From: Verrucomicrobiota bacterium
Lineage (GTDB): Bacteria > Verrucomicrobiota > Verrucomicrobiia > Verrucomicrobiales > DEV007
Length of the DNA stretch: 19,499 nt
Direction of reading: 5' to 3'
Assembly (NCBI GenBank): GCA_045046875.1
Contig: JASFYY010000157.1
Location: forward strand, 1 to 19,499
Numbering within the stretch: the stretch's first letter is position 1; each line of letters begins with the position of its first letter. A program made the position numbers. This document shows, one piece after another, positions 3,001-6,000 of this stretch.

Positions 3001-6000
3001 ACACTCTGGTGATCTGGGGAGGAGAGTTCGGTCGCACTCCGATGGCACAGGGCAGTGGTCGGGATCACCATATCAAGGGTTTTTCGATTTGGATGGCAGG
3101 AGGTGGTATCAAAGGCGGGATCAAATATGGCTCGACCGATGATTTTGGTTATGATGCGGTCGAGGACGTGGTTAATGTGCGTGACCTGCATGCGACGATG
3201 TTGCATCAACTGGGCATTGACCATAAACGGTTTTCATTCAAAAACCAGGGTCTCGATATGCGGCTGACCGGAGTGGAGCACGCGCGAGTGGTGAAGGGGA
3301 TTTTGGCCTGAACAGTTAATCCAAATCTCCTTTGCGGTAATAGTCAGCGGAAAAGTAAGCCCGCATGCCGAGATACATTCGATCGTTTTTGCTCTTCACG
3401 GTGATTTTTTCCCCATCAAAGAGGAACTCTATGGTGCAGGCTTTGCCCTCGATGAAGGATTCTTTGTCCGCATCGATAAAAAGGGCTTTGTTTTTTCCCC
3501 CTTCAACAAAGGGCGCAAAACCTTTGATGTCGCCGAGGTGAAAGGTTGGTCCCCGAACCACACTGAGGTTAAAATCCAGTCCAGTGCTTTTTGCGTTAAT
3601 TCGAGTCTCCAGCCAACCGCCTTTGCCATCCGTCCAGGAGCCGTCAACGCGGTGCTGGGGATTGCCTCCAGCGTAGATTTCTAAAAAGCGGCTTTGGGAC
3701 TCAGTTAGGTCGGCCATGACTTCCCAGTAATCGGCGCTTTTTTGCAGTTCTTTGAGGTCCTCACTATCACCTCTTGTCATTAACTGGTCTTGGTATTTTG
3801 CCATGTAATCCCGGTATTCAATCCAGCCCAGCTGTCGTTCACGCAGTTTTATTTTTTTAGCTTTGGCTAGTTGAATCATAAGGCGTGTGTACACATAATT
3901 GAGTTTGGCATCGGCCATGGTGTGCCGGGCGCGAACCAGCTTGAGCTGTTCGGCGTCACTAAGTGAATGATAAGAACCGCTGGGGTCGGGGGTGAGGGTT
4001 TCCCCTTGCACCATGACCGTTATTTTCACATCGCCAGATTGGCCGGGCAGTTTTTCCAAGGTGAGCTTCCCAATTTCTACAGCTTCGTCATCATTACCGC
4101 GGAATTCCATCAACGCTCCACGTTTGATTGCCCCGCCTGTCAAGGCTGCTGTAAAATCACGCTTTTTTGTTTGCAGGGTGCAGTCGAGTTTGCCATCAGA
4201 CGATGTCCAGATATCAAGGCTATTGCCATTGGGCCCGATGTAGCTCAGATCTCCGGCGGATGTGATGGAGCAAAGTCCAAAAGCGAGACAAAGTGAGAGA
4301 ATGTTTGCGTGAGGCATGCTTTAGCATGGGTAAGGTTGCTAAAGAAGTCAATGAAATCAGAGGGCAGGACTTAGGGCGGGTGTAAGACAAAATAGTTAAT
4401 CTGCGGGCCTCTATGCGTTTCGCCCTTTGCAGGGCTGGGAAAGTTGGATTTTTTACCCAGCGCTTCGCACTGGGCTATATCATTGAGCACCGTTGGTGCA
4501 AAAGAGATGAAAGCAAACTGTCCTGAAAGGACAAAATGTGATAGCCCGGTGCGAAGCGCTGGGGTTAAATCGTTTTTATTGCCAGCCCTAATAAGGGCGA
4601 CATGAGGTTGAGGTGTGATAAGGTAGCTTTCAATAACCAATGGCTAACTTTTTTGTCCTGCACCCACTTAGGGCCGCAGCAAAAATAGAATATCCCAAAC
4701 TACTTGCCTTTTTGATCTCCGTCTGCGTTCAAATTCTCTCACATAGCTCGCTATCATCGAGAATTTCGACTTAATGAAAATCAAAAATTCTGCGCATTTT
4801 GGGGTATCCATTAGTTGCCTCGACCCTTAGCCACTTGTAGCGCGTTTTTTTTGTAGTAGAGTGGACGCATGAAACGTCGAGAATTCCTCAATCAAGCCGC
4901 CGCCACTACCCTCCTCACCACTGTTGCCGGGTCGGTATCTATTTCCAAATCCGTTGCCAAGCCCAATGACCGGATCAATATCGGGGTGATCGGGGTGGGC
5001 AAACAGGCTCGCTATTTGATGACGGTGGCGATGCGTTTACCCAAGGTGCAGATCGTTGCGGTGAGCGATGTGGTGAAGGAGCGCAAGGAGGATGCGGCTA
5101 GACTCGGCACGGAATTTTACACCAAAATGCATGGAGAGGACTACAAAGGCAGCATCAGTCAGCACGACGACTTTCGGGAGATCATTGCGCGTGATGACAT
5201 CGATGCGGTGATCGTTGGCACTCCGGATCACTGGCATGCGATTCCAGTGATCATGGCCGCTGATGCCAAGAAGGACATCTATTGTGAAAAACCGATCTCA
5301 CTGACGATCGAAGAAGGTCGCGCGATGGTCAATGCGGTGAAACGTAACAAAGTGGTGTTTCAGACCGGTAGTATGCAGCGCAGCGAATATGATGGGAAAT
5401 TTCGCATCGCCTGTGAACTGGTGCGCAGCGGGCGTATTGGAAAGGTTCTCAGTATCAATGTAGGAGTGGGTGACCCCAATCGACCGTGTGACCTTCCTAC
5501 AGAAAAAGTTCCGGCTGGTACCAACTGGGACATGTGGCAAGGGCCGACTCCCGACCGGGGATATAATGAAATTCTTTGTCCCAAGGGGATACATAATCAT
5601 TTCCCCCAATGGCGTCTCTACCGGGAATACGCGGGCGGGTCAGTGGCCGATATGGGAGCACACCATTTTGATATCGCCCAATGGGGACTCGGGATGGATG
5701 ATAGCGGTCCGGTGAAAATCATCCCGCCGACTGACGAAAAGGATTTGCGAGGGTTAAAACTCATTTACGCCAACGGAGTAGAGATGACCCATGGCGGGCC
5801 GAGTGGCACGACTTTCATTGGAACCGAGGGCGTTATCTCGGTGGATCGGGGTCATTTGACCACTATTCCCAATAATATGCGGGAAAAGAAACCGCTCGGC
5901 AAAGATGATGTGAAGCTGGAAGATACCGGTGGGCAGGCTCGGGTCAGTCACATGGGAAACTGGATTTACCGGATGCAGGATCGTGGGTTGTCGATTTGCC

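What a model noticed while it worked through the whole genome (the two positions that open the first line are those of the whole stretch)
4378..4665. The 'Acido-Lenti-1 RNA' motif is the core of a 288-bp MITE with ~100 copies
Five of the six Rfam Acido-Lenti-1 (RF01687) hits of this genome, and the sub-threshold hits seen, sit at one fixed place inside a ~283-288 bp interspersed repeat (the sixth, C87:46535, lies in a diverged relative of it). The repeat has the hallmarks of a miniature inverted-repeat transposable element: 18-bp terminal inverted repeats (GGGTGCAGGACAAAAAAG ... CTTTTTTGTCTTACACCC), ~9-bp target-site duplications and a near-perfect long hairpin fold. The genome holds 98 loci of it (49 at >=85% length; 16 touch a contig end, so it breaks the assembly); the exemplar C157:4378-4665 is an insertion absent from the orthologous site of a same-genus genome. 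So the motif described as a candidate sRNA is [...]
Evidence so far: Five of six rna.tsv hits + one sub-threshold hit share >160 nt of flanking identity, the C87 hit only the hairpins; further sub-threshold hits inside copies on C15, C31, C113; BLAST of the unit: 98 loci, 49 near full length, 16 at contig ends; consensus, TIRs and TSDs, e.g. GCCCTAAGT at C157, CCAAGCCAAA at C113; both ends recognised by strict patterns in 9 copies; empty site: G094:C319 4829-5303 and 5299-5572 match the two flanks of C157 with 451 bp (this element plus a 162-bp second repeat) missing; matches: G000 71, G094 75, G092 41, but 0-2 in three other genomes of the genus; MFE -138 kcal/mol. Weinberg 2010 lists the motif as likely RNA, not cis-regulatory (PMC2864571, Table 1 and suppl [...]
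(Added by a program. Inside this text positions count along the whole contig: contig position 1 is position 1 of the stretch shown here. "Call 12" and the like, gene names such as g00115 and contig names such as C1 are that model's own, and its searches are not shown. The text may have been shortened before it was handed on; [...] marks where a part breaks off. The agent that wrote the report below was given it as the finding of a first reader that could run no searches.)

Follow-up and report, generated by a model that had tools for sequence, protein, structure and literature searches.

The report
Miniature transposon carrying Acido-Lenti-1 hairpins
The 288-bp repeat is a gene-less jumping element that borrows the ends of an ISKra4-type insertion sequence, and its middle is a pair of hairpin modules that databases list as the small RNA "Acido-Lenti-1", which therefore looks like mobile-DNA hairpins, not an RNA gene.

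Summary
Window 4378-4665 is one copy of a 288-bp repeat with 21-bp imperfect terminal inverted repeats and a perfect 9-bp duplication (ACTTAGGGC). The genome has 98 loci of it. 18 of 32 full-length copies have a duplication matching at 7 or more of 9 positions, against 0.1% of 992 mismatched control pairs. The site is empty in a same-genus genome.

I found the missing partner. A 1865-bp insertion sequence in same-genus G003 encodes an ISKra4-family transposase (269 bits, cut-off 205), and its end matches the repeat's end 22 of 22.

115 of 121 Acido-Lenti-1 matches in this genome lie inside copies. Each copy holds two, one per strand.

The headline is too narrow:
- The motif is part of a three-hairpin module that also occurs here without these ends.
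- A sister species has transposons with the same ends and a different interior.
- In two other genomes of the phylum the module flanks IS200-family transposase genes.
- The original seed alignment is mostly clustered repeats from one genome.

Earlier notes of this scan report the motif in mobile repeats of at least 31 other genomes. Expression could not be tested. It is a new member of a known kind.

The parts
4369..4377 (.). Left copy of the 9-bp target-site duplication, ACTTAGGGC
   Evidence: It is identical to 4666-4674. Its last three bases (GGC) are the first three of the neighbouring second repeat, so this element arrived after that one.
4378..4398 (+). Left terminal inverted repeat, GGGTGTAAGACAAAATAGTTA
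   Evidence: 22 of 22 identical to the right end of the 1865-bp ISKra4-family IS in G003:C62. The family consensus matches that IS end over about 26 of 27 bases, counted by eye from the printed ends.
4422..4435 (+). Outer hairpin H0 of the left module (GCCCT-TTGC-AGGGC)
   Evidence: The same hairpin, CGCCCTTTCAGGGC, starts the module next to the IS200-like gene in G028 and the doublets without ISKra4 ends in this genome.
4456..4500 (+). Acido-Lenti-1 module A (stem P1, linker, stem P2), plus strand
   Evidence: RF01687, 21.9 bits, E 0.008, model positions 1-46.
4501..4518 (.). 18-bp spacer between the two modules, T-rich on the minus strand
   Evidence: It is the least conserved block (mean majority fraction 0.87). 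The segment between the two P1 stems, spacer included, is inverted in 2 of 32 copies (C154, C69).
4519..4563 (-). Acido-Lenti-1 module B, minus strand
   Evidence: RF01687, 34.2 bits (cut-off 37), E 3.6e-6. Its P1 equals P1 of module A in inverted orientation. Its P2 has a different sequence but still forms a hairpin.
4585..4598 (+). Outer hairpin H0 of the right module (GCCCT-AATA-AGGGC)
   Evidence: It mirrors 4422-4435.
4645..4665 (-). Right terminal inverted repeat (reverse complement GGGTGCAGGACAAAAAAGTTA)
   Evidence: Like the left (transposase 5') end of the G003 IS it carries the AAAAAA variant, while the other end of both carries AAAATA.
4666..4674 (.). Right copy of the 9-bp target-site duplication
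   Evidence: A metagenome contig joins 4368 to 4666, skipping 297 bases with 9 shared letters, which is the allele without the MITE (one contig, 24-letter side).
4672..4826 (.). Second, unrelated small repeat (E2, about 155-162 bp) flanked by CTTAG
   Evidence: Missing together with the MITE from G005:C319. The query matched 10 other places in this genome: four fuller E2 copies (122-182 bp), five fragments (39-78 bp) and one that is only the MITE end inside the query. Copies also occur in G005 and G002. A contig joins 4369 to 4826 with 5 shared letters.
3316..4317 (-). Left flanking gene (333 aa, weak LprI-domain match)
   Evidence: It is divergent from the right-hand gene, so both insertions lie in a divergent intergenic region.
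4869..6167 (+). Right flanking gene (432 aa, GFO/IDH/MocA oxidoreductase)

Best explanation
Window 4378-4665 is one copy of a non-autonomous miniature transposon (MITE). It is moved in trans by an ISKra4-family (prokaryotic Mutator-like, DDE) transposase that recognises its roughly 21-28-bp inverted ends and makes a 9-bp staggered cut in the target. The interior is not a deleted insertion sequence. It is an inverted doublet of a three-hairpin module (H0, P1, linker, P2), and the P1-linker-P2 part of that module is what Rfam models as Acido-Lenti-1. The same module forms the ends of IS200/IS605-family (Y1/HUH) elements and their gene-less doublets in other genomes of the phylum. The element is therefore best read as a chimera: DDE-type ends enclosing a pair of HUH-type end hairpins, amplified to about 100 copies. 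The base-pair covariation that led to the RNA annotation can be explained by hairpins kept at the DNA level. Shown: repeat family, inverted ends, 9-bp duplications, empty site, matching IS in the genus, module outside this vehicle, and module flanking IS200-like genes. Inferred: that the ISKra4 enzyme moves it, how the doublet got between the ends, and that no RNA function is needed.
For: Repeat and ends: 98 loci, with sharp homology boundaries exactly at GGGTG...CACCC in 32 aligned copies. Duplications: 18 of 32 match at 7 or more of 9 positions, against 0.1% of 992 controls. Empty site in G005:C319. Metagenome contigs bridge the site without the MITE and without both repeats, and depth over the element is 50-250 times that of the flanks. 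A shared old copy (G005:C328 = G000:C109 end) beside this post-split copy shows activity across speciation. Partner: all 3 IS-sized pairs of the end motif found in a search of 401 genomes of the phylum enclose ISKra4-type transposase genes (193, 192 and 136 bits). G003:C62 holds an 1865-bp IS with a 612-aa ORF scoring 269 bits against NF033572 (cut-off 205), and its end equals the MITE end 22 of 22. G005, which is rich in MITEs, has IS fragments at contig ends with an exact end motif. G000:C28 holds a decayed 5' stub of the IS. Family traits in print: inverted repeats of 18-39 bp with a terminal C, direct repeats of 8 or 9 bp, and presence in Planctomycetes (PMC3942029, passages read). Cargo is separable: G004 has MITEs with the same ends and perfect 9-bp duplications but no RF01687 match in 9 loci. 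Module origin: RF01687 matches flank IS200/IS605-family transposase genes on both sides at G028:C1, G028:C33 and G047:C8, with NF033573 at 66 bits (G028:C1) and 58 bits (G047:C8) against a cut-off of 55; at G028:C33 only a partial Y1_Tnp match was obtained (41 bits). The G028:C1 end reads H0-P1-linker-P2 with nearly the same H0 as here. Copies decay evenly: majority fraction 0.87-0.96 in all blocks, median pairwise identity 0.878.
Against: No intact ISKra4 transposase gene was found in this genome (0 matches; only a stub). The assembly has no contig under 3.7 kb, so a multi-copy 1.9-kb IS may simply be missing. The 1865-bp G003 IS and the three IS copies from other families show no clean duplication. 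G003 has the IS but none of these MITEs, and G002 has MITEs but no transposase match (73% complete). Only the terminal 21-30 bp are shared with the IS, so derivation from the IS rests on the ends alone. In this genome none of 4 Y1-like gene loci scanned has an RF01687 match nearby, and only 1 of 15 has the MITE core next to it. The module order here (P2 innermost) is the reverse of that in the G028 IS200-like element (P2 outermost). Hairpin blocks are slightly better kept (0.93-0.96) than spacers (0.87-0.91), which leaves room for some constraint. An RNA role was not tested.
Confidence: 0.8

Rival explanations
1. Each Acido-Lenti-1 unit is a genuine small-RNA gene (Weinberg's reading: likely RNA, not cis-regulatory), and the MITE merely spreads a functional sRNA or terminator cassette that the host uses.
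For: The two P2 stems in one element differ in sequence yet both pair. Stem blocks are slightly better conserved than spacers. On the minus strand P2 of module B is followed by a T-rich run that the scan flags as terminator-like. Copies are over-represented between convergent genes: 20 of 62, against 17% of intergenic regions. Two papers still treat it as an ncRNA of unknown function (passages read).
Against: Each element holds two units, one on each strand. The genome has 121 matches, and only 5 reach Rfam's cut-off. Decay is even along the whole element. The terminator-like site is no more than shuffles give (1 found, 0.8 expected). The same ends move a different interior in G004. The motif forms the ends of IS200-like genes elsewhere.
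Confidence: 0.08
2. The 288-bp unit is a REPIN/PATE-type doublet moved by a Y1 (RAYT or IS200-like) transposase in this genome, and the ISKra4-like ends are incidental.
For: The core is an inverted doublet of the module that flanks IS200-family genes in G028 and G047. This genome has 15 Y1_Tnp matches. Doublets without the ISKra4 ends exist in it.
Against: Homology between copies stops exactly at the ISKra4-type ends, and 9-bp duplications flank them. I recall that HUH/Y1 elements make no duplications; this was not checked here. The G028 doublets show none. Only 1 of 15 Y1-like genes here has the core nearby, and 0 of 4 loci scanned have an RF01687 match.
Confidence: 0.07
3. The copies spread by segmental duplication or recombination, or are an assembly or binning artefact, and not by transposition.
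For: 17 copies sit at contig ends. A few loci are tandem or nested (C6, C85, C102).
Against: Flanks are unrelated between copies. The duplications are copy-specific. The family occurs in three separate same-genus assemblies and in four metagenome runs from three studies. The empty site is clean.
Confidence: 0.02

Closest known systems
ISKra4 group of prokaryotic Mutator-like insertion sequences (p-MULT 4; Guerillot et al. 2014, PMC3942029) and MITEs derived from insertion sequences in general
   Same: Inverted ends of about 21-28 bp ending in C, 9-bp direct repeats, presence in Planctomycetes (paper passages). A same-genus IS has the same end and an NF033572 transposase over the cut-off. The element is small, non-coding, multi-copy and intergenic.
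   Different: There is no transposase gene, and the interior is unrelated to the IS (only the ends match). The paper's promoter-upstream targeting is not evident: 20 of 62 intergenic copies lie between convergent genes. My search for ISKra4 together with MITE listed 6 papers, none of whose titles or abstract starts is about such an element (listing only).
Acido-Lenti-1 RNA motif (Rfam RF01687; Weinberg et al. 2010, PMC2864571)
   Same: Two hairpins with a conserved linker. The model matches both arms of the core (34.2 and 21.9 bits) and 121 places in the genome.
   Different: The window copy is below the gathering score. The units lie in inverted pairs inside a transposon and are not free-standing genes. 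The published alignment (87 rows by my count, 56 from one genome, many in same-strand or alternating clusters) already looks like a repeat family.
IS200/IS605-family elements and their gene-less derivatives (the names REP/BIME, REPIN and PATE are recalled, not from any call)
   Same: The module forms both ends of NF033573-positive transposase genes in G028 and G047. G028 has 205-bp gene-less palindromic doublets without inverted DDE-type ends or duplications.
   Different: Here the doublet is enclosed by DDE-type ends and flanked by 9-bp duplications. The module order is reversed (P2 inside). No Y1 gene of this genome is flanked by the module.

Membership tests
MITE (non-autonomous derivative of a DDE insertion sequence) | Terminal inverted repeats | tested here: met
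   18 of 21 positions complementary in the window copy. 32 pairs of the end motif lie 250-399 bp apart in the genome.
MITE (non-autonomous derivative of a DDE insertion sequence) | Target-site duplication of fixed length | tested here: met
   9 bp. 18 of 32 copies match at 7 or more of 9 positions, against 0.1% of 992 control pairs.
MITE (non-autonomous derivative of a DDE insertion sequence) | Small, multi-copy, no transposase gene | tested here: met
   282-333 bp and 98 loci. The only ORF is an 89-aa TTG frame, and copy lengths differ by amounts that are not multiples of three.
MITE (non-autonomous derivative of a DDE insertion sequence) | Autonomous element with the same ends in the same or related genomes | tested here: met
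   G003:C62, 1865-bp IS, end identical 22 of 22. IS fragments in G005 and a stub in G000:C28.
MITE (non-autonomous derivative of a DDE insertion sequence) | Empty orthologous site | tested here: met
   G005:C319, and bridging metagenome contigs (single contigs with short sides).
ISKra4-family (p-MULT 4) mobilised element | Inverted repeats of 18-39 bp with terminal C, and direct repeats of 8-9 bp (PMC3942029) | tested here: met
   paper passage.
ISKra4-family (p-MULT 4) mobilised element | Transposase of the family next to the same ends | tested here: met
   NF033572 scores 269 bits (cut-off 205) in G003. It scores 193, 192 and 136 bits, below the cut-off, in three other genomes of the phylum.
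ISKra4-family (p-MULT 4) mobilised element | Insertion upstream of sigma-A promoters in a fixed orientation (a trait of several members only) | tested here: inconclusive
   20 of 62 intergenic copies lie between convergent genes. In tandem contexts 22 of 32 point with the genes. The gene map is crude and ORF-based, and no promoter model was used.
ISKra4-family (p-MULT 4) mobilised element | Mobilisation by the transposase | not testable with these tools
   This needs a transposition assay.
Rfam RF01687 Acido-Lenti-1 | Score at or above the gathering score of 37 bits | tested here: not met
   The window copy scores 34.2 and 21.9 bits. In the genome 5 of 121 matches pass, 4 of them inside copies.
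Rfam RF01687 Acido-Lenti-1 | Transcribed as a small RNA | not testable with these tools
   No RNA run holds the stretch.
IS200/IS605-end doublet (REPIN/PATE-like) | Inverted pair of the hairpin module that flanks a Y1 transposase gene | tested here: met
   The core is an inverted doublet. The module flanks Y1 transposase genes at 3 of the 5 loci scanned, in G028 and G047, and the two tested reach NF033573's cut-off.
IS200/IS605-end doublet (REPIN/PATE-like) | Cognate Y1 transposase in the same genome, flanked by the module | tested here: not met
   1 of 15 Y1-like genes has the core nearby, and that is a truncated MITE copy. 0 of 4 loci scanned have an RF01687 match.
IS200/IS605-end doublet (REPIN/PATE-like) | No target-site duplication (feature recalled, not from a call) | tested here: not met
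   9-bp duplications flank the copies.

The most novel reading that the evidence does not exclude
Acido-Lenti-1 is not an RNA gene family. It is the end-hairpin cassette of an IS200-like (Y1/HUH) element lineage that survives as gene-less doublets and is repeatedly picked up as cargo by miniature transposons of unrelated DDE families. Here the carrier is ISKra4; earlier notes of this scan name IS1 and IS982, which I did not test. It would be a mobile element riding on another mobile element. The reversed module order in this element (right end, then left end) could mean that the captured piece was a junction between tandem copies or a circle junction.
Probability: 0.4. Interest if true: 0.65.

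Novelty: new member of a known kind. Interest (0 to 1): 0.5.

Why it matters
Rfam RF01687 has been annotated in genomes as an sRNA since 2010. [quoted passage not shown] If it is mobile-DNA hairpins, such annotations are misleading, and repeat-aware masking should be applied. The locus also gives a concrete, testable pair: an ISKra4-type transposase and its MITE in a little-studied bacterial group. It shows one pair of transposon ends carrying different cargo in sister species. About a tenth of this assembly's contig ends (31 of 326) lie at or within 120 bp of a copy, so the element also limits assembly quality.

Tried and rejected
- Expression: no RNA holder was listed for window 3300-6200, so expression is untested.
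- Partner in the genus: searches for IS-sized pairs of the end motif in G000, G002 and G005 found none. G000 gave spacings of 150-599 bp only. Ten unpaired ends fetched from G002 and G005 were truncated copies beside ordinary genes, except G005:C260.
- ISKra4 model on G000: 0 matches.
- RAYT or IS200 partner in G000: 15 Y1_Tnp matches, but only 1 has the core nearby, and 0 of 4 loci scanned have an RF01687 match.
- IS duplications: neither the three IS copies from other families nor the G003 IS show clean 9-bp duplications.
- Extra constraint on hairpins: only a small difference from spacers, so no conclusion.
- Promoter or terminator inside the element: one terminator-like site, no more than shuffles give.
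- Earlier notes: none exist for this genome or for look-alike sequence.
- G044: two Y1 loci have no motif nearby at E<=0.01.
- Not tried: structure prediction, protein homology searches and complex prediction, because the transposase family was already clear.
- Seed flanks: the flanks of Weinberg's seed sequences could not be fetched. Only their coordinates were read.
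Full report
**Observation**

The stretch 4378-4665 begins GGGTGTAAGACAAAATAGTTA and ends TAACTTTTTTGTCCTGCACCC. 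The same nine bases, ACTTAGGGC, flank it at 4369-4377 and 4666-4674. It folds into a nearly complete long hairpin: -138.3 kcal/mol, z -9.9, with none of 200 shuffles as good. The other strand gives -120.3, z -10.7.

BLAST of the unit against the 5.59-Mb, 163-contig assembly gives 98 loci.
- 51-55 loci cover 85% or more of the unit.
- 17 touch a contig end, and 31 lie within 120 bp of one.
- The 32 full-length copies have a median pairwise identity of 0.878.

In an alignment of those 32 copies with 40-bp flanks, similarity stops exactly at the two ends. The nine bases on either side agree at 7 or more positions in 18 of 32 copies, or 23 of 32 if the register may slip by up to 2 nt. The same measure on 992 mismatched left/right pairs gives 0.1% and 1.2%.

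**Rfam**

No family reaches its gathering score in the window. At relaxed thresholds RF01687 matches twice inside the element: 4519-4563 on the minus strand (34.2 bits, cut-off 37) and 4456-4500 on the plus strand (21.9 bits). The two matches are the two arms of the central hairpin. Their P1 stems are the same sequence in inverted orientation. Their P2 stems differ in sequence but both pair.

Across the genome there are 121 matches at E<=1, and 5 are over the cut-off. Of these, 115 of 121, and 4 of the 5, lie inside the BLAST-defined loci.

**Insertion history**

Same-genus genome G005 has both flanks adjacent (C319...CAATACTTAG|TCACTTGTAGCG). It lacks 451 bp. The missing DNA is the 288-bp element, its duplication, and a second unrelated repeat of about 155-162 bp (about 4672-4826) bounded by CTTAG.

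The 9-bp target of the first element spans the old flank (ACTTAG) and the first three bases of the second repeat (GGC). The second repeat therefore arrived first.

Contigs of public metagenome runs support this order.
- One joins 4368 to 4666, skipping 297 bases with nine shared letters.
- Another joins 4369 to 4826, skipping 456 bases with five shared letters.
- Each is a single contig with a side of only 24-25 letters, so I treat them as weak support.
- Depth over the element is 50-250 times that of the flanks.

A different copy (G005:C328) is orthologous to the truncated copy at the end of G000:C109, with flanks 92-96% identical. The family therefore has insertions older and younger than the split of the two species.

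By DNA similarity the unit occurs in 2 of 5 same-genus genomes and in 0 of 35 further relatives searched.

**The partner**

No IS-sized pair of ends exists in G000 or among the listed ends of G002 and G005. G000 has no match to the ISKra4 transposase model. However, the assembly has no contig shorter than 3.7 kb, so a multi-copy 1.9-kb IS may be missing from it.

A pattern search for the end motif in 401 genomes of the phylum found three IS-sized pairs, of 1747, 1666 and 1933 bp. All three enclose a gene whose best family is NF033572, the ISKra4-family transposase. The scores are 193, 192 and 136 bits, below the 205 cut-off. A small DUF6788 ORF lies upstream in each.

Searching that family in the five same-genus genomes gave three relevant results.
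- G003:C62 scores 269 bits, over the cut-off. Its 612-aa frame sits in an 1865-bp element whose right end is identical to the MITE's left end over 22 of 22 bases.
- The family consensus matches that IS end over about 26 of 27 bases, counted by eye from the printed ends.
- G005:C260 carries the last 153 residues of such a transposase next to an exact end motif at a contig end. It is 94.6% identical to the G003 IS over 480 bp. G005:C45 carries an N-terminal part.

G000:C28:14145-14330 is a decayed stub of the IS's 5' end.

The two ends are slightly different, and the difference (AAAATA against AAAAAA) is shared between MITE and IS. Beyond the ends the MITE and the IS are unrelated.

Guerillot et al. 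2014 (PMC3942029; passages read) report for these Mutator-like elements inverted repeats of 18-39 bp with a terminal C, direct repeats of 8 or 9 bp, and occurrence in Planctomycetes. All three fit. The neighbouring genes here carry planctomycete-type domains (PSD1, DUF1501).

**Cargo and vehicle are separable**

Four observations show this.

1. *The module occurs here without the ISKra4 ends.* Six RF01687 matches of G000 lie outside the family. They sit in short repeats built from the same three hairpins (H0 GCCCT-N4-AGGGC, then P1, a linker, and P2), as inverted doublets or single modules without ISKra4 ends (C87, C66, C151, C19, C13, C115).

2. *The same ends carry a different interior in a sister species.* G004 has 36 matches to the end motif, against 4 for the reversed control. 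Nine pairs that I fetched lie 171-265 bp apart, and three have perfect 9-bp duplications. Their interiors have no RF01687 match at E<=0.1.

3. *The motif is a patchy, multi-copy repeat across the phylum.* It occurs in 17 of 151 sampled genomes, with 35, 33, 25, 15 and 13 matches in the five genomes with most matches, G000 included. It takes several forms:
   - In G028 it forms 205-bp palindromic doublets that end in the P2 hairpin, with no further inverted ends and no duplication.
   - In G162 it lies in a palindrome of about 590 bp with quite different ends.
   - In G047 it forms tandem arrays with a 153-bp period.

4. *The module flanks IS200-family transposase genes.* The best Y1_Tnp gene of G028 (C1:36567-36908), a second partial one (C33), and the best one of G047 (C8:57452-57796) are each flanked on both sides, within about 200 bp, by RF01687 matches.
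   - The G028:C1 and G047 proteins reach the cut-off of NF033573, IS200/IS605-family transposase (66 and 58 bits against 55).
   - Upstream of the G028 gene the sequence reads H0-P1-linker-P2, with an H0 almost identical to the one in this window.
   - G028 has 25 matches in 5.9 Mb, so two matches within a few hundred bases of a given gene are not expected by chance.
   - Two Y1 loci of G044 have no motif nearby.
   - In G000 only 1 of 15 Y1-like genes has the core beside it, and that is a truncated MITE copy. None of 4 loci scanned has an RF01687 match.

**The published seed**

Weinberg et al. 2010 list the motif as likely RNA, not cis-regulatory (Table 1). I read their alignment in the supplement. 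By my count it has 87 rows.
- 56 rows come from one draft genome (accession prefix NZ_ABCK) and 11 from NC_008009.
- Many lie in same-strand clusters with spacings of about 74, 110-115 or 192-200 bp.
- One set alternates in orientation (contig 16: 15912, 16051, 16151, 16291).

That is the layout of a repeat family. It is not the inverted-pair-in-a-MITE layout seen here. I could not fetch the seeds' flanks.

Two 2026 preprints still describe the motif as of unknown function, or as a possible regulator (passages). A search for the motif's name found 6 papers. I read passages of three, and none calls it a repeat or a transposon.

**Where copies sit**

I used a crude ORF-based gene map (4299 ORFs, 89% coding). 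Of the 98 loci, 17 touch a contig end and 14 lack a neighbouring ORF on one side. Of the other 67 copies, 62 are intergenic. The 5 classed as "in ORF" overlap short frames, at least three of which lie within the repeat itself.

Of the 62 intergenic copies:

| Context | Copies | Share of background intergenic regions |
|---|---|---|
| Between convergent genes | 20 | 17% |
| Between tandem genes | 32 | 65% |
| Between divergent genes | 10 | 18% |

In tandem contexts 22 of 32 point with the genes. This fits tolerance of insertions behind genes better than strict promoter targeting. It is weak evidence.

Conservation along the element is nearly flat, at 0.87-0.96. Hairpin blocks (0.93-0.96) are slightly above spacers (0.87-0.91). 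In 2 of 32 copies the segment between the two P1 stems is inverted.

**Reading**

The element is an ISKra4-type MITE whose interior is a doublet of the end hairpins of an IS200-like lineage. Rfam's Acido-Lenti-1 model recognises those hairpins. The covariation that suggested an RNA can come from hairpins kept at the DNA level.

The following remain inferred:
- that the ISKra4 enzyme moves the element;
- how the doublet came to lie between the ends;
- why the module order here (P2 inside) is the reverse of that in the G028 element (P2 outside);
- whether any copy has an RNA-level effect.

**Earlier notes of this scan**

Earlier notes report the motif in MITE-like or REP-like repeats of at least 31 other genomes, with ISKra4, IS1, IS982 and IS200-like partners. 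I used them as leads. I tested the ISKra4 and IS200-like claims here on other genomes. The IS1 and IS982 claims are untested.

Noticed in passing
window 4672-4826 (also G000:C54:12468-12629, C22:59441-59621, C75:10428-10575): A second small repeat of about 155-162 bp, with weak inverted ends (GGCCGCAGCAA... / ...TTGCCTCGACC) and a CTTAG duplication, is absent from the G005 site. A query spanning it matched 10 other places in this genome: four fuller copies (122-182 bp), five fragments (39-78 bp) and one match that is only the MITE end inside the query. At C54 and C22 it again lies next to a piece of the 288-bp element.
   Followed up: partly
G004 loci L090-L098: A sister species has a different MITE family (171-265 bp) with the same ISKra4-type ends and perfect 9-bp duplications. 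Its GC-rich hairpin interior gives no Rfam match.
   Followed up: partly
G000:C154:307-593 and C69:23685-23971: In 2 of 32 full-length copies the segment between the two P1 stems is inverted, as if flipped by recombination between the inverted stems or by passage through a hairpin intermediate.
   Followed up: no
G000, 15 places (e.g. C88:4772-5875, C43:18104-19177, C55:15563-16735): About 13 open frames of 330-400 aa match only part of the Y1_Tnp / REP-associated tyrosine transposase models (52-72 bits, below the cut-off of 80). They form a multi-copy Y1-like gene family not flanked by the hairpin module.
   Followed up: partly
G047:C8:54658-58796 (L089, L102): Tandem array of repeats with a 153-bp period, each holding an Acido-Lenti-1 match on one strand, surrounding an IS200-family transposase gene.
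   Followed up: partly
G000:C28:14145-14330: A decayed 5' stub of the ISKra4-type IS (end motif plus about 65 codons, 72% identical to the G003 protein), followed by a short GC-rich tandem repeat.
   Followed up: partly
L019, L020, L021 (ISKra4-like IS copies in three other genomes): Each has a small DUF6788 ORF (129-144 aa) upstream of the transposase gene. The same-genus G003 IS has a single 612-aa frame in its place.
   Followed up: no
run X3 laid on window 4378-4665: A contig joins the end of one copy to the start of another with nine letters between them (GATTTTGAG). These equal the right-hand duplication of the copy at G000:C113:44015-44301, which suggests two copies head to tail at one target in some population.
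   Followed up: no
G162 loci L084 357-943 and L085: A palindromic repeat of about 590 bp with long inverted ends (GCCTCTTCGACGTTTTGTTC...) carries the Acido-Lenti-1 modules in its centre. This is a further vehicle of unknown family.
   Followed up: no
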